DNA of 64,000 nt from the human T2T-CHM13v2.0 reference genome, Homo sapiens: NCBI RefSeq assembly GCF_009914755.1, contig NC_060940.1; one strand, 5' to 3'. The number at the start of each line of letters is the position of its first letter. Position 1 is the first letter of the stretch. The position numbers and the translations under genes were made by a program. Positions 43,707-49,518 of this stretch are shown here, piece after piece. The notes beneath the pieces are model-generated. The model did not search any database. It saw only the letters and a list, made by a program, of their open reading frames with translations, and was not told where the DNA came from.

Positions 43707-43749
43707 GTTAAGAGAGAAGAGAGTCAGCAACAGCAAGTTTTACTCATAG
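43707..43749 (+). CDS. PLCG2: PLCG2 exon 33 coding part, ends ...LREKRVSNSKFYS-TAG
   Basis: ttttatttcAG acceptor; with exon 20 starting in codon 685, the summed exon lengths end at codon 1265 + stop, the recalled protein length. Confidence 0.97.
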
Positions 43750-44022
43750 AAGCTGGGGTATGTGTGTAAGGGTATTGTGTGTGTGCGCATGTGTGTTTGC
43801 ATGTAGGAGAACGTGCCCTATTCACACTCTGGGAAGACGCTAATCTGTGACATCTTTTCTTCAAGCCTGCCATCAAGGACATTTCTTAAGACCCAACTGG
43901 CATGAGTTGGGGTAATTTCCTATTATTTTCATCTTGGACAACTTTCTTAACTTATATTCTTTATAGAGGATTCCCCAAAATGTGCTCCTCATTTTTGGCC
44001 TCTCATGTTCCAAACCTCATTG

Positions 44023-44028
44023 AATAAA
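44023..44028 (+). terminator. proximal polyadenylation signal AATAAA
   Basis: first canonical hexamer after the stop, about 270 nt downstream. Confidence 0.75.
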
Positions 44029-47000
44029 AGCAATGAAAACCTTGATCAATTAAGCCTTCTGTTGCACGACCTGTGCAGTGAACAGGATTTCTTTTCTGGC
44101 CAAGAAGATTCTACCTCTAATGATCCAGGTAACTGATGTCCATGGAGGATGAGCTGGAAATGTAAGAAACTATTCATGAGATTCTGAAAAGGATTTTAAC
44201 TCAAAGGCAAATGATTCCATAAGGGCCCAAAGAGAAGCCCTACCCACAGGCAGCCTGCTCAGTTCAATGTACTTTAACTACCACCGGCTGCCTGCTGCAG
44301 TCCACAAGAAAATGGCTGAGTGATGGGATCTGTTCATTAAGACAATTTCTAATTAATGGTGACAGCTTGTTTTGTGACTAGAGTTACTGGGATGGAGGGT
44401 AGGAATCTTGGGGCCTCTTTGTTTTAAAAAGCCCATCAGAGAGACCAGAGCCGTGCTGCAGGGGCAGGTTCTCACTTGCCCCTGGCTCTGCCAGCTGCTG
44501 GGAGGCTCTGGCCCCACTAGTCCCTCATGGCCCTACTGAACTGGCTGGGAGGCTGCTGGAATGGCCCTTGGTCCACAGCTCTCCACAGGCAAGAGGTCAA
44601 CTGCTGCTTGAAAGAGGTAGACAAAAGTTAGGTTGATGGCGAAATGTCTCTGGGTTACCCAGTCTTCTGGAGCAGCAAGCTGAGCTTTAATGGGCTAAGC
44701 ATTAGGGTGTTACAGAAAATTTCAAATGCAGCCATCTCCCTTGGGGCAGATCTACCTAGTTCATGACAGTATGTGCGGCTGGCCAGGGCTTTACACCTCT
44801 GCATCTTAAGTTGTTAATACATACCAATAATGTAATATGGCTTTTTAAAGGAGAGGAGAGTGCTGGGTTGGGAAGGGAGGTGGTTGGTAGAGTCACAACT
44901 TCTCAATGAGTGAATTTACAGCTGATGGGAAAAGGAGTGTAACTGTGAAAAACGATGGCTGTGGTGGGGAAGAACAAACCAGCAGTAAGCCTGATGTTTG
45001 ATGTGGATGGAACTGGCCCCTAGAAACCCATCTGACCCTCCTCTTGTTACCTGAAATGCTGGGCTTAGTATGCATGTACTGCTGAAAAGCAGGGCAGAAC
45101 AAATCAGGCTCTGACCAGAAGATCCTTCTGGTCCCTTCACTCTACAAAAACTTACTGATCACCTCCACATGCCAAATACAGTGCCAAGATTTGGGGGTGT
45201 GGATGTTTAAACAAAAAGCTGTGGGTCTCATCAATCATCTCCATCCACAAGCTCCTAAAAGAAAGCCATTTACCTCGCTTGAAGCCAGGAACACAGGGAA
45301 CAGCAGTCTGGCCAAGGAAGGGCTGTTATCTGGTGCTATCACTCCAGTTACTCCTCCAACTGGGAGCTGCTATTTTATTTGGCAGTCAGCAACTGAAGAA
45401 AGAACATTCCTCTTAGTGGCAGATGTTCAAAGCAACTTTCAAGAAAGGCTAGGTGAGAAAGGCACTGGGATGAGTGCTGCAGGCACTCTGTAGCCAGGGC
45501 CCCATTAGCCTTTGGCCAGGTAGCCACCAGAACCTATTTATTGCACCTGGCATCTCCCCCAACCCCTCTCAGCTCTGTTAGGACTTCCACACAGCAGAGC
45601 TCAGGTGTTGCTGTCATTACCTCCTTTCAGCTCCTCACTTCATTCTACTTTAAAGCCACAGTGCTAAGGCCTGCATCCCCTTTCTGCCCAAATGGGTTTT
45701 TTGCTACCATATCAAAGAACCTGACATATGGCGGCATAGGAAGCAGAAGCTAAGCCTCTCTCCAGCTGCTGCTGTGTAAAATCCATGCGTGGCCAAAGAG
45801 AAGTCAGGGGATTATGACATAAATGGTGCTGGGAAGAACCCTCTGCCTAAAACTGTCTCCTTCTCCTGGTGCTACAACCGGAATCCACCATGAGAGAGTA
45901 CTTTCTTCGGTTCTTTCCTCCTGTCCTTGACAGAGTAACACGTTAATCTGGTTCTTGGTGGTGTTAGGGACTGATTCTCTCAGGAAAGGCACACATGGTA
46001 TGATGGCTCTTCCCAGAGTCTATGTGATGCTACATAACTTCAGTATCTAGCTGAGACATGCTTCCTACATGACTGTTAAAGCACAGCCAATCCAGGCCAA
46101 GAAGACTAGTAACAGGCACGTTCTGAAAGATGGAAGCAGCACTGATAGATCAAAACCACCACTGCATATGTATTACACTGTTTTTGTTCACCATTTTCCT
46201 AAGTGTGTTATTTAGAATATTGGTTATTACAAGGAAAAATAAAGTGGGGAGGCTGGTTAGGCCTTGTGAGTTTGGGAAACTTAGGTTATAAAAACTAAAT
46301 AAAGTTTTTCTACTGTGAGACTAGATGTGCAGGAGTGAAAGGTGTAGAGGGTCTTGTTTTCCAAATTCGATCTCAGAATCTTTTTGCCAGAAGTGTCTCA
46401 TGGGACTTATCTATAGTGGAACACATTTGAAGACCTACTGCTCTATTAAGAAGGCAGCCGGACAACATGTTCTAATACTTCGTATGCTTTGTGACCTAGT
46501 TAAAATCTAAACTTAAGTCGCCATGGCCAGTGGCCTTTAGATTAAGCTAGCCTTACCCCTGGGAGTATACCAGAGCTTTCCAAGGAATACACAGACTCCA
46601 GTACTCTCAGGGGAGCAGTGTTCAGAGCCTCATCTTCCTGTTATATTCTTCTCTAAGATTCATCTGCCTGAGAAAATGCCCTTTTCTCACCTTACAAAAG
46701 AAAATATGGCTGTCTCCACCTCTAGTCTTACTGTAGAGCATGTCCCAAGGTGTAAAAATTCAAAATGTGGATATTTGGAAAGTGAAAGACTTATCAACAG
46801 GGCACAAATCTTTTTGCAAATGGATTTTCCAAGTTTTTCTGGTGGTTCCAAATTTTTTGCTTTCAACAAAGTGGGAGGAACAGCCTGTAGATTTCTGAGT
46901 CTCTTAGCATGTAACTACAAAGGGGTTGGAAGAATTCAGTGATTCTGCTATCATAAAGCTTCCGTTCCCATTGATGTATCTGTGTGAACAAGGATCAACA

Positions 47001-47676
47001 TCTCCATAAATGAAATTGAAAACGGAAAATAGAATTGATGATGAACTTTGGCTCAATCTTAAGATGTTATCAATCTACATAGATGAAATAATTGTGGAGA
47101 AAAGCCCTCTTTATCTCATTAAGTGATACATTTCCAAAGAAGTTTTACTATGTTTAATAATTTAGTGAAATTTGGGCTATGTGTTTATTGATTCAGCTCA
47201 ATCCAGAGGAAAATTTTAAAGGCTTACAGCCTTAGGATTATAGGATACTATATAATACTTTTGGTACAGAGATAGAATTAAATAACATAAAAATCAAAAA
47301 TTTATTAGGCTAAAATTTTGAGGGAGAAGTGGTATGAAAATACAAATTCAAGGAGTAAAAGGAAAAGTGGGGCATTCCTTGCTACTAAAAATTGCCTTGT
47401 TCCAGGTAAGACTGATCATAAAAAAATGGCCCTGTTCATAAAATTTTTAAAAAGATCATAGTATCTATCAAATAACTTATATTAAGAACCTCCTGGGCTA
47501 AATTTAAAAAGTAATACAACAGTTTTATTTAAACATGTAGTGTCTACGGTATGCCAGCACTTTGCAGCTATTTATAATGAGAAATTTTAGATGTCAATAT
47601 AGCAATGTGCAAGAAGATAGAGATTTTCAAAATTCACTTAAGAGTATCTGAGCATAAAATGTTAAGATTGCTGATC

Positions 47677-47916
47677 GGATGTGAGGGCGATCTGGCTGCG
47701 ACATCTGTCACCCCATTGATCGCCAGGGTTGATTCGGCTGATCTGGCTGGCTAGGTGGGTGTCCCCTTCCTACCTCACCGCTCCATGTGCGTCCCTCCCG
47801 AAGCTGCGCGCTCCGTCGAAGAGGACGACCAACCCCGATAGAGGAGGACCGGTCTTCGGTCAAGGGTATACGAGTAGCTGCGCTCCCCTGCTGGAACCTC
47901 CAAACAAGCTCTCAAG
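47677..47916 (+). pseudogene. 7SK snRNA processed pseudogene (RN7SKP family), nt 1-240, 3'-truncated and tailless
   Basis: starts GGATGTGAGGGCGATCTGGCTGCGACATCTG (7SK 5' end) and follows the recalled 7SK sequence to CAAGCTCTCAAG with about 5 mismatches; perfect 13-bp direct repeat AAGATTGCTGATC at 47664-47676 and 47914-47926. Confidence 0.96.
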
Positions 47917-48401
47917 ATTGCTGATCTAGGGCCACTAAGTGATGAAGCAAAAAGGATGGCTAAAAAGGACCTCAACCCTTTTGACTTTAAAAGGAAAATA
48001 GCTTAACCTTCAACCTGTGTGACATTTAACTTTTTGAACCCAACCGTAAAAGCTATCTTCTAACCAACAAAAAGTTAATAATTACATTTGGAATTATACA
48101 GAATTAGAAAATTGGCATTTAAAAATACTCAATAATTTGTCCCTGGTTTTTAATTTTCAAAATATTTTCTTTTTGAAGAGCCAGATTCCAGTGATCCTGC
48201 CTCTCAGAAATTTCCACATTTCTTATTTTTCATTAGGCCTTAAGAAGCTGCATTTGTAAACTTGTGTTTCATTATTAAAGCTTAATTTATTTTTTATATA
48301 AATAGTATGTGCTTTGTGTACATAGAGAATTAAGTGAATGAGTCACACAGATGTTGGCTGTTGTTAATGTGAAAATTAAACAGCTGTATCACATTTTGAA
48401 A

Positions 48402-48407
48402 AATAAA
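48402..48407 (+). terminator. distal polyadenylation signal AATAAA
   Basis: canonical hexamer preceded by ATTAAA (48375), several TGTA (CFIm) motifs and U-rich sequence. Confidence 0.7.
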
Positions 48408-49518
48408 AGTTTCATCTGAATGAATATAGCAATCTGCCCAGAACTTTTTTTAAAAACTGCTATTCACCTTTTATATTCCCAAATAAAACACACACACACA
48501 TACAATAATTTAGTCATGAGATAGGTAGAGTTACAGTTATTTTTTGAAATGTGTTTTACTATCCTATTTATCCCACGTTTCTTTGGGTTACAGGTTTATC
48601 TTCAGCAAAAACTCACTCTGTGTTGAAACTCAAGTTTGTACGATTAATACTTGAGTGCTCTTCAATTTATCAGTTTTGAAAGAATGTTTAGTGTTGGAAG
48701 GAGCGAGGACCTTATAGTAAGTCCCTGTATTTCTCAGCTGAGTGATAGGCTCCCTAGAACTGTCAATCACTGCGTTTCTTGCCAACAATCCCTGGTCCAC
48801 AGGAAGCCATGTTGTATCTCATACCTCTGACCCCCAACCCCCAGCCCCCAGTGGTTGGATTAGTTACCCTGGTCCAAAGATTTAATAATAGCCTATGACA
48901 AACCTCTGCATTAGAAGATGAGCAAGGAATAGTAAAAAGCAAAGATGAAATTAGAACTGCCAAATGACCACTTTTTAAATGGATACAACCATAACTCTCA
49001 TAAAGATATATAATGAACATATGTCAGAAATCTTATTAATTAACAAAGGAACCAGTGAGATGTTCCAGCTTGTTTAAAGGAGAATGCAGAGAACAATATA
49101 TATACATACAGTATAGGTTATCCGCTATCCAGATTATCTGATTTTATACGGTTTCTCCACGTTTTATTGTCCGAATAATGCAAATTATTCCTGTCCGTAG
49201 AAATGCAAACTGTGTCCTGTGGAGATTCCATTGATCATTCCCTTGTGGATACTGATCACTGGTTTTACCAGTTTTATATCTATTAAATTTATTTCAGCAT
49301 CGCTGATGGATGTGAAATCTGACTCCTATCTTACTCCACACACAAAAATCAAGTCAGTTAGATTATAGATCAAAATATGAAAGATAAAACAATATTTCTA
49401 GAAGGTCTTCACAACATCGGCGTAGGGAAAGGTTACTTAAACAAAACTACAAAAGCAGCATCCCTGAAGGAAGACTGCTAAATTTGACTCCCCTAAAATT
49501 CAAAACTGGTTTTTATCA

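What the first reader, a model, noticed from the sequence alone, without database searches (positions are those of the whole stretch)
47664..47926. Near-intact 7SK HEXIM-binding module embedded, in sense orientation, in the long PLCG2 3' UTR
Seen: 240 nt of 7SK (nt 1-240) sit in sense orientation between the proximal (44023) and distal (48402) poly(A) signals, so only long-UTR mRNA would carry them. Against the recalled 7SK sequence there are only about 5 differences (nt 80, 96, 138, 156, 217). Both GAUC motifs (47718-47721, 47740-47743) and the flanking U bulges are intact. The single change in the nt 24-87 hairpin (C80T) turns G31-C80 into a G-U wobble and so preserves the stem. The 3' hairpin and U tail are missing. 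Established: the 5' hairpin binds HEXIM1/2 and HIV Tat; the 3' hairpin and U tail bind LARP7; 7SK uses an external type-3 Pol III promoter, so a retrocopy has no promoter of its own. Inference: alternative polyadenylation could add or remove a HEXIM/P-TEFb or hnRNP docking site on PLCG2 mRNA, affecting retention, stability or local 3' end processing. This is the best candidate here for an undescribed system, but nothing in the sequence shows function.
Basis: partly seen in the sequence, partly recalled or inferred. Interest (0 to 1): 0.85.

Follow-up and report, generated by a model that had tools for sequence, protein, structure and literature searches.

The report
Known 7SK pseudogene in PLCG2 3' UTR
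This is an ordinary, already catalogued dead copy of the 7SK RNA that a jumping-gene enzyme pasted into the tail of the PLCG2 gene, and nothing found here shows that it does anything.

Summary
Window 47677-47916 (+) is nt 1-240 of 7SK, 235/240 identical to the real RN7SK gene. The five changes are at nt 80, 96, 138, 156 and 217. It is flanked by a perfect 13-bp target-site duplication and lies in the annotated long PLCG2 3' UTR.

It is RN7SKP176, a "tailless retropseudogene". It is 5'-complete, cut off in the SL3 loop, has no A tail, and its duplication overlaps the 7SK end by 3 nt. 27 of 39 sampled genomic 7SK copies have this form. Noll et al. 2015 list 139, apparently including this one. 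A 2025 preprint already notes that it overlaps the PLCG2 3' UTR.

There is no sign of constraint:
- SL1 carries 1/64 changes against 4/176 elsewhere (p=1).
- All five copies at 97% identity or more keep the HEXIM motifs.
- Three changes break consensus pairs and none is compensated.
- Folding predicts that C80U shifts the copy to the weak-binding GAUC1/GAUC2 conformer (P 0.956 against 0.005).
- The LARP7/P-TEFb hairpin, the free 5' end and a promoter are absent.

One unexplained lead remains: PLCG2 mRNA was among 317 of 16,538 mRNAs in a Tat RIP-chip.

Verdict: a neutral passenger that is already known.

The parts
47664..47676 (+). 5' target-site duplication AAGATTGCTGATC; preceded by TGTT, so the top strand reads TT|AAGA, a one-base variant of the L1 endonuclease site TT|AAAA
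   Evidence: 13/13 identical to 47914-47926; for the flank; the TT|AAAA consensus is as cited in Noll 2015
47677..47916 (+). RN7SKP176: 7SK nt 1-240, 235/240 identical to RN7SK. Substitutions at 47756 (C80T), 47772 (C96A), 47814 (G138C), 47832 (T156A) and 47893 (A217G)
   Evidence: hub annotation
47689..47692 (+). GAUC1 (7SK nt 13-16), the partner of GAUC2 in the alternative SL1alt conformer
   Evidence: (10-nt internal repeat GATCTGGCTG at 47689-47698 and 47740-47749)
47700..47763 (+). 7SK 5' hairpin region nt 24-87, with GAUC2 at 47718-47721, GAUC3 at 47740-47743, and U40/U41/U63 intact. It carries one change, C80T, giving G31-U80
47914..47926 (+). 3' target-site duplication. Its first 3 nt (AAG) are also 7SK nt 238-240, which is microhomology at the priming point. 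There is no A tail
43707..48424 (+). Host: last exon of PLCG2 NM_002661.5 (stop at 43749, 4675-nt 3' UTR). The copy lies 3928 nt after the stop and 508 nt before the annotated 3' end
   Evidence: hub annotation
44023..44028 (+). Proximal AATAAA, 22 nt before the annotated short-isoform end at 44045
   Evidence: hub annotation
48402..48407 (+). Distal AATAAA, 22 nt before the annotated end at 48424
   Evidence: hub annotation

Best explanation
RN7SKP176 is a tailless retropseudogene of 7SK RNA.

How it arose (inferred from the anatomy, and the same mechanism published for the class): L1 endonuclease nicked the PLCG2 3' UTR at TT|AAGA. The freed ...CTT-3' end annealed to the AAG at nt 238-240, in the single-stranded apical loop of 7SK stem-loop 3. 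L1 reverse transcriptase then copied 7SK from there to its 5' end. This left nt 1-240 with no A tail between 13-bp duplications.

Age: divergence of 2.1% suggests the insertion happened roughly in the ape or catarrhine ancestor. This is an inference from recalled rates.

Since insertion it has decayed neutrally. It has no promoter, no terminator, no 3' hairpin and no free 5' end, so it is transcribed only as a passive part of the long-UTR PLCG2 mRNA. It most likely has no function of its own.

Its practical importance is as a source of ambiguity in read assignment between PLCG2, RN7SKP176 and 7SK.
For: Identity and anatomy:
- 7SK nt 1-240, 235/240 identical.
- Perfect 13-nt TSD whose 3' copy overlaps the 7SK end by 3 nt.
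- No A run after the copy.
- The end point lies in the loop of the Rfam consensus hairpin, model positions 233-245.

Class membership:
- 27 of 39 pseudogene hits scored in the human assembly end at nt 237-247; 11 are near full length and 1 ends at nt 270 (40 of 273 candidates were scored).
- Of the 16 distinct truncated copies I held as loci, none has an A tail. An exact-match search found a TSD of 10 nt or more in 11 of them, and in 10 of those 11 the TSD starts 2-8 nt inside the 7SK homology.
- The 12 full-length copies are older (87-92% identity), and most carry A-rich tails.
- Noll et al. 2015 (abstract, passages and Table S2 read) describe exactly this class, with internal priming at single-stranded A-rich sites. 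They count 139 from 7SK. 126 of the 140 table rows are 225-250 nt long, median 239. One row, hg19 chr16:81995531-81995772, matches this copy by arithmetic from a recalled coordinate.

No constraint:
- 1/64 changes in nt 24-87 against 4/176 elsewhere, Fisher p=1.
- The ratio of the two rates is 0.68. The pooled ratio for the 16 truncated copies is 0.65 (42/1024 against 174/2768; my arithmetic on the table).
- 16/18 CpGs are kept, within the range 14-18/18 of the other four copies at 97% identity or more. All five of those copies keep both GAUC motifs plus U40, U41 and U63.
- Three of the five changes make consensus pairs non-canonical (11-96, 123-138, 149-156). One gives a wobble, one is unpaired, and none is compensated.

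No autonomy:
- The upstream 260 nt show no similarity to the RN7SK promoter region (score 17; 144 of 200 shuffles score at least as high).

Folding:
- The copy is no more stable than shuffled sequence (z +1.27 and +1.48).
- The predicted probability of the HEXIM Site1 helix is 0.005 alone and 0.001-0.096 with 100-400 nt of UTR on each side. Native values are 0.44-0.64.
- HEXIM1 dimer binds linear SL1 at 73 nM but SL1alt at about 2 uM (passages).
Against: - All sequence letters known to matter for HEXIM1/Tat Site1 are intact: GAUC2, GAUC3, U40, U41, U63 and the A39-U68 pair.
- HEXIM1 bound 7SK(10-48) and generic dsRNA in vitro (abstract and passages), so some binding to the embedded RNA is plausible in either conformer.
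- PLCG2 is named among Tat-associated mRNAs in a Tat RIP-chip in CEM T cells, where 317 of 16,538 mRNAs were enriched in both IPs. Tat binds 7SK SL1 Site1. That paper never mentions the pseudogene, and I could not read its probe-level supplement.
- With only five substitutions and no primate genomes to hand, the constraint tests have almost no power.
- Nearest-neighbour ensemble predictions are rough, and proteins can capture minor conformers.
Confidence: 0.85

Rival explanations
1. Cis-acting HEXIM1 (or Tat-like ARM protein) dock. The embedded 7SK 5' domain recruits HEXIM1 to long-UTR PLCG2 mRNA or pre-mRNA, so that poly(A)-site choice adds or removes a regulatory handle.
For: - Site1 letters are intact.
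- The 5' hairpin is the HEXIM and Tat site (introduction read).
- HEXIM1 is partly cytoplasmic and binds RNAs other than 7SK (abstract).
- PLCG2 mRNA appears in the Tat RIP-chip list.
- Both short and long 3' ends are annotated (hub).
Against: - No constraint signal.
- The predicted ensemble favours the weak-binding SL1alt-like pairing.
- Three mismatches in SL1 abolished the binding-competent state in experiments (preprint passages).
- HEXIM1 dimer autoinhibition disfavours single or weak sites.
- There is no 3' hairpin for LARP7/P-TEFb and no 5' end for MePCE.
- 7SK itself is very abundant, about 20,000 particles per cell as stated in the paper. It should therefore outcompete a rare mRNA (inference).
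- On this idea the same module in well over a hundred other loci would have to act alike.
- No paper in the library holds RN7SKP* together with HEXIM1.
Confidence: 0.05
2. Generic structured, GC-rich UTR insert. Whatever its origin, a 240-nt stretch of 61% GC in a 41% GC UTR alters local structure, RBP or m6A occupancy, or use of nearby poly(A) signals, with a small HEXIM-independent effect on PLCG2 mRNA.
For: - GC is 0.608 in the copy against 0.409 in the rest of the UTR. The copy lies 508 nt upstream of the distal cleavage site.
- A preprint reports a microglial signal at this spot.
Against: - Folding is not more stable than shuffled sequence.
- There is no evidence of selection.
- Nothing specific is predicted. 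Any insertion would qualify.
Confidence: 0.07
3. Autonomously transcribed 7SK-like small RNA made by Pol III from this locus.
For: - A TATA-like CATAAAAT lies about 18-24 nt upstream of nt 1.
- A T4 run follows at 47979-47982.
Against: - No similarity to the RN7SK upstream region, and no PSE-like block at -66 to -47 (the PSE position is recalled).
- The TSD abuts nt 1, so no promoter was carried along.
- The TATA-like run is closer to the start than in the real gene.
Confidence: 0.01

Closest known systems
Tailless retropseudogenes (Schmitz et al. 2004, seen only as a reference; Noll et al. 2015, GBE, PMC5322556, abstract, passages and Table S2 read)
   Same: 5'-complete. 3'-truncated at a defined single-stranded position. 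No oligo(A). TSDs present. The target site is complementary to the RNA at the break. L1-type target. 7SK is a named source, with 139 cases, most about 240 nt long.
   Different: Nothing of substance. The L1 site is TT|AAGA rather than the class consensus TT/WAAAA. The overlap with the RNA is short, at 3 nt.
Functional RN7SK gene and the 7SK snRNP
   Same: 97.9% identical over nt 1-240. It carries GAUC1-3, the U bulges and SL2.
   Different: Lacks nt 241-331: half of SL3, SL4 and the U tail, which give LARP7 and P-TEFb contacts. It also lacks the external type-3 promoter, the terminator and a free 5' triphosphate for MePCE. C80U and C96A weaken linear SL1.
Protein-binding RNA hairpins inside Pol II transcripts that engage the HEXIM1/Tat arginine-rich motif: HIV-1 TAR; 'HEXIM1-binding elements on mRNAs' (Fujimoto et al. 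2012, seen only as a reference; the paper is not held); NEAT1-HEXIM1 (reference only)
   Different: For this copy no binding has been shown, and it is predicted to prefer the weak-binding conformer. It arose by chance retroposition and shows no constraint.
Full-length, A-tailed 7SK processed pseudogenes
   Same: Same source RNA and same L1 machinery.
   Different: Those end at nt 322-331 with A-rich tails and are older in my sample (87-92% identity). This one was primed internally.

Membership tests
Tailless retropseudogene (Noll 2015 criteria, methods passage) | 5' end (almost) complete, at most 5 nt missing | tested here: met
   The alignment starts at 7SK nt 1.
Tailless retropseudogene | 3' truncation of at least 10 nt and no oligo(A) tail | tested here: met
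   Ends at nt 240 of 331. It is followed directly by ATTGCTGATC.
Tailless retropseudogene | Flanking TSD of 8-35 nt, at least 70% identical | tested here: met
   13 nt, 13/13 identical.
Tailless retropseudogene | Break point in a single-stranded region of the source RNA, with target-site complementarity | tested here: met
   nt 238-240 lie in the hairpin loop of the Rfam consensus structure. AAG is shared between the RNA end and the TSD. 10 of the 11 sister copies with a TSD of 10 nt or more show the same overlap.
Tailless retropseudogene | L1 endonuclease-type target (TT/AAAA-like) | tested here: inconclusive
   TT|AAGA is one base off the consensus. That such variants are commonly used is recalled, not tested here.
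Functional 7SK gene (RF00100 / 7SK snRNP RNA) | Sequence and structure match to the family model | tested here: met
   259.3 bits against a gathering score of 35. However, the 3' third aligns with low posterior probability and broken pairs.
Functional 7SK gene | 3' hairpin and U tail (LARP7 and P-TEFb contacts) | tested here: not met
   Homology ends at nt 240. The role of the 3' hairpin is.
Functional 7SK gene | External type-3 Pol III promoter | tested here: not met
   No upstream similarity to RN7SK; 144 of 200 shuffles score at least as high.
HEXIM1-binding linear SL1 module | GAUC2/GAUC3, U40, U41, U63 and the A39-U68 pair present | tested here: met
   None of the five differences touches them. 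The requirement is.
HEXIM1-binding linear SL1 module | RNA adopts the linear SL1 fold (GAUC2 paired with GAUC3) rather than SL1alt | tested here: not met
   Prediction only. P = 0.005 for the copy against 0.64 for native nt 1-240. The GAUC1/GAUC2 alternative has P = 0.956. Reverting C80T in silico restores 0.56.
HEXIM1-binding linear SL1 module | Measured HEXIM1 binding | not testable with these tools
   Needs EMSA, ITC or CLIP.

The most novel reading that the evidence does not exclude
The 7SK 5' domain carried by long-UTR PLCG2 mRNA really is bound in cells by arginine-rich-motif proteins: HEXIM1 normally, and Tat in HIV-infected cells. That would explain why PLCG2 mRNA came down in a Tat RIP-chip. 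Poly(A)-site choice would then tune PLCG2 output in microglia, B cells and NK cells. By extension, the 140 or so tailless 7SK copies that sit in sense inside Pol II transcripts would form a dispersed family of HEXIM1/Tat docking sites.
Probability: 0.06. Interest if true: 0.6.

Novelty: already known. Interest (0 to 1): 0.18.

Why it matters
The value is mainly practical. PLCG2 is a disease gene, which I state from recall: Alzheimer's risk or protection, APLAID, and ibrutinib resistance. Its canonical 3' UTR holds 240 nt that are 98% identical to one of the most abundant nuclear RNAs.

The copy lies 508-748 nt from the mRNA 3' end, where 3'-tag single-cell reads pile up. It is also annotated as a separate same-strand gene, RN7SKP176. 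Read assignment, eQTL or co-expression work and CLIP or RIP interpretation at PLCG2 can therefore be distorted. A 2025 preprint already suspected this.

If the Tat RIP-chip hit on PLCG2 were shown to depend on the insert, it would be a neat case of a pseudogene lending an mRNA a viral or host protein handle. That remains untested.

Tried and rejected
- **Autonomous Pol III unit.** Rejected: no promoter similarity.
- **Unusual thermodynamic stability.** Rejected: z +1.27 for the copy (182 of 200 shuffles fold at least as well) and z +1.48 with 100-nt flanks.
- **Shared diagnostic substitutions pointing to a variant source gene.** T156A is unique to this copy. C80T (6 others) and position 138 (9 others) are CpG sites hit repeatedly. 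A217G is shared with one old copy. No subfamily signal emerges.
- **Constraint on SL1.** No signal, but almost no power.
- **DNA-level duplication.** Rejected because of the TSD and the exact start at nt 1.
- **Other Rfam families in the UTR.** Only two matches below threshold, likely chance.
- **Fujimoto 2012.** Not held.
- **Literature searches for the functional idea.**
  - 'RN7SKP176': 2 papers, one work.
  - 'PLCG2' + '7SK': 6 papers. I opened two; only the Tat paper was relevant, and the other four I saw only as listings.
  - '7SK pseudogene' + 'HEXIM1': 4 papers. The passages I saw in three of them and the listing of the fourth showed nothing about embedded copies.
  - 'RN7SKP' + 'HEXIM1': 0 papers.
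  - '7SK' + 'pseudogene' + '3 UTR' + 'HEXIM1': 0 papers, though the phrase '3 UTR' may not match the printed form.
- **Primate presence/absence and rate tests.** No primate genome is available here.
- **Gene context of the sister copies.** No genome-wide annotation is available here.

Full report
**1. Observation**

- Rfam's 7SK model (RF00100) matches window 47677-47982 on the + strand at 259.3 bits (E 3.9e-73). It is the only family above its gathering score in the whole window.
- The window's own assembly could be searched, which gave the real RN7SK gene (chr6, 403.5 bits).
- An ungapped local alignment to that gene covers 7SK nt 1-240 = window 47677-47916 with 235/240 identities.
- Both GATC motifs (47718-47721, 47740-47743) and U40, U41 and U63 are intact.
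- nt 31 pairs with nt 80 in the hairpin fold of the native sequence, so C80T gives G-U.
- AATAAA is present at 44023 and 48402.
- The hub annotation places the copy in the last exon of the selected PLCG2 transcript. It lies 3928 nt after the stop codon and 508 nt before the annotated 3' end.

**2. Anatomy**

- A perfect 13-nt direct repeat, AAGATTGCTGATC, flanks the copy at 47664-47676 and 47914-47926.
- The 5' repeat abuts 7SK nt 1.
- The 3' repeat begins inside the 7SK homology: its first three bases, AAG, are also 7SK nt 238-240.
- There is no A tail. The real gene continues GTCCATT..., while the window continues ATTGCTGATC.
- The target reads TGTT|AAGATT, that is TT|AAGA, one base off the L1 endonuclease consensus TT|AAAA.
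- nt 238-240 lie in the loop of the Rfam consensus hairpin, model positions 233-245.
- The simplest reading is internal priming. The nicked bottom strand (...CTT-3') annealed to AAG in the SL3 loop, and L1 reverse transcriptase copied from there to the 5' end. This step is inferred from the junction, not observed.

**3. It is one of many**

- A DNA search of the assembly with the real gene scored 40 of 273 first-look candidates. Of the 39 pseudogene hits, 27 end at query nt 237-247, 11 are near full length (322-331) and 1 ends at nt 270.
- I held 29 distinct copies as loci: 16 truncated, 12 full length and 1 other.
  - None of the 16 truncated copies has an A tail.
  - An exact-match search found a TSD of 10 nt or more in 11 of the 16. 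In 10 of those 11 it starts 2-8 nt inside the 7SK homology.
  - Older copies with mutated TSDs would be missed by that search.
  - The full-length copies mostly carry A-rich tails and are older, at 87-92% identity.
- This class is in print. Noll et al. 2015 (PMC5322556; abstract, passages and Table S2 read) describe 'tailless retropseudogenes'.
  - They are primed internally at single-stranded, A-rich positions, with target-site complementarity.
  - 139 derive from 7SK.
  - In their table 126 of 140 7SK rows are 225-250 nt long, median 239.
  - One row is hg19 chr16:81995531-81995772. I could not lift coordinates over.
  - I recall that the older RefSeq PLCG2 model ended at hg19 81,991,899, which corresponds to window 44045. 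Adding 47677-44045 = 3632 gives exactly 81,995,531. The row is therefore very probably this copy, but this rests on a recalled number.

**4. Is the 'near-intact HEXIM module' special?**

No.
- The copy is simply young. It is one of five sampled copies at 97% identity or more, and all five keep both GAUC motifs, U40, U41 and U63.
- Among the 16 truncated copies, 9 keep both GAUC motifs.
- The hairpin nt 24-87 has 1 change in 64 positions against 4 in 176 elsewhere (Fisher p=1).
- The ratio of these rates is 0.68. The pooled ratio of the 16 truncated copies is 0.65 (42/1024 against 174/2768; my arithmetic on the table). That pooled ratio probably reflects where the CpGs lie.
- 16 of 18 CpGs survive. 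The other four young copies keep 14-18 of 18.
- Of the five changes, three make Rfam consensus pairs non-canonical (11-96, 123-138, 149-156). One makes a wobble and one is unpaired. None is compensated.
- This is the pattern of neutral decay. With five events, however, no test has real power.
- Age: 2.1% divergence from a source that is itself conserved suggests an insertion roughly in the ape or catarrhine ancestor. With 5 events the range is wide, and the rates are recalled, not computed here.

**5. Would it fold as a HEXIM site?**

- 7SK has three GAUC elements. It switches between linear SL1 (GAUC2 paired with GAUC3, binding-competent) and SL1alt (GAUC1 paired with GAUC2). Sources are Brogie and Price 2017 (abstract and passage), the Olson et al. 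2021 preprint (passages) and Yang et al. 2026 (passages).
- ViennaRNA partition functions give the following:

| Sequence | P(GAUC2/GAUC3) | P(GAUC1/GAUC2) |
|---|---|---|
| Native 7SK, full length | 0.44 | 0.46 |
| Native nt 1-240 | 0.64 | 0.22 |
| The copy, alone | 0.005 | 0.956 |
| The copy with 100-400 nt of UTR on each side | 0.001-0.096 | not computed |

- The native values reproduce the known balance between the two conformers.
- The canonical hairpin structure costs 5.5 kcal/mol more on the copy.
- Placing C80T alone on the native sequence drops the Site1 helix to 0.14. Reverting it in the copy restores 0.56. C96A adds to the effect.
- Only 2 of the 16 natural truncated copies keep P>0.5.
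- Experiments point the same way. Three mismatches in SL1 abolished the binding-competent state. HEXIM1 dimer binds linear SL1 at 73 nM but SL1alt at about 2 uM.
- So 'C80T preserves the stem' is formally true, but the prediction is that it tips a finely balanced switch.
- Caveats: nearest-neighbour ensembles are rough, and HEXIM1 bound 7SK(10-48) and plain dsRNA in vitro.

**6. What else is missing**

- The 3' hairpin, which contributes to P-TEFb and LARP7 binding, and the U tail are absent. SL3 is cut in its loop.
- An embedded copy has no 5' triphosphate for MePCE (inference).
- The upstream 260 nt have no similarity to the RN7SK promoter region; 144 of 200 shuffles score at least as high.
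- The copy folds no better than shuffled sequence.

**7. What is in print about this locus**

- A 2025 bioRxiv preprint (10.1101/2025.09.08.674970; passages read) states that RN7SKP176 overlaps the PLCG2 3' UTR. [quoted passage not shown]
  - The copy lies 508-748 nt from the mRNA end, and microglia are a PLCG2-expressing cell type (recalled).
  - The simplest reading is therefore that those reads are PLCG2 long-UTR reads counted under a second same-strand annotation. This is my inference.
  - If so, it also indicates that the long UTR is used there.
- Bouwman et al. [quoted passage not shown] They name PLCG2 among Tat-associated RNAs.
  - Tat binds 7SK SL1 Site1, and the paper does not mention the pseudogene.
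  - It may still be chance (1.9% background). It may also reflect other GC-rich stem-loops, which the authors propose. A third possibility is cross-hybridisation of co-precipitated 7SK, which was 9-fold enriched, although labelling was oligo-dT primed.
  - The probe-level supplement could not be opened.
- No paper in the library holds RN7SKP* with HEXIM1.
- The 4 papers holding '7SK pseudogene' with HEXIM1 showed nothing about embedded copies as docks in what I saw of them: passages of three and the listing of the fourth.

**8. Verdict**

The element is real and correctly described, but it is ordinary.
- It is an annotated, catalogued tailless 7SK retropseudogene of the commonest shape.
- It was inserted by L1 into the PLCG2 3' UTR and is decaying neutrally.
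- It is transcribed only as part of the host mRNA.
- The proposed HEXIM/P-TEFb docking function has no support from sequence, family comparison or predicted folding. It is weakened by the loss of the P-TEFb/LARP7 hairpin and the predicted shift to the weak-binding conformer.
- It is not excluded, and the Tat RIP-chip coincidence is worth one look at existing data.
- The main practical point is ambiguity in read assignment at a disease gene.

Noticed in passing
window 46238-46243, 46298-46303, 47277-47282, 48274-48279, 48375-48380: Further poly(A)-signal hexamers lie inside the PLCG2 3' UTR: AATAAA twice near 46.2-46.3 kb, and ATTAAA three times. Ends at the first three would also exclude the 7SK copy. 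No annotated transcript end matches them.
   Followed up: no
L044 and L045 (G000 C22:21958884-21959121 minus strand; C22:21802737-21802974 plus strand): Two truncated 7SK copies on chr22, about 156 kb apart and in opposite orientation, have identical matched sequence, both nt 1-238 at 92%. They are probably one old insertion carried in an inverted segmental duplication.
   Followed up: no
window 47653-47660: A TATA-like CATAAAAT lies about 18-24 nt upstream of nt 1 of the copy. No PSE-like block or other similarity to the RN7SK promoter accompanies it, so it looks like chance in an AT-rich UTR.
   Followed up: partly
window about 48488-48502: A short (CA)n run follows an AATAAA at 48482, just past the annotated PLCG2 3' end.
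   Followed up: no
L009 (G000 C22:43045881-43046195): A 7SK copy ends at nt 270 (96.6% identical) and is preceded by a long A run upstream. It fits neither the nt 240 class nor the full-length class.
   Followed up: no
all 16 truncated copies: The native 7SK sequence is predicted to sit close to a 50:50 balance between the GAUC2/GAUC3 and GAUC1/GAUC2 pairings. Nearly any pseudogene substitution tips it: only 2 of the 16 natural copies keep P>0.5 for the HEXIM-site helix. This illustrates how finely poised the known 7SK switch is.
   Followed up: partly
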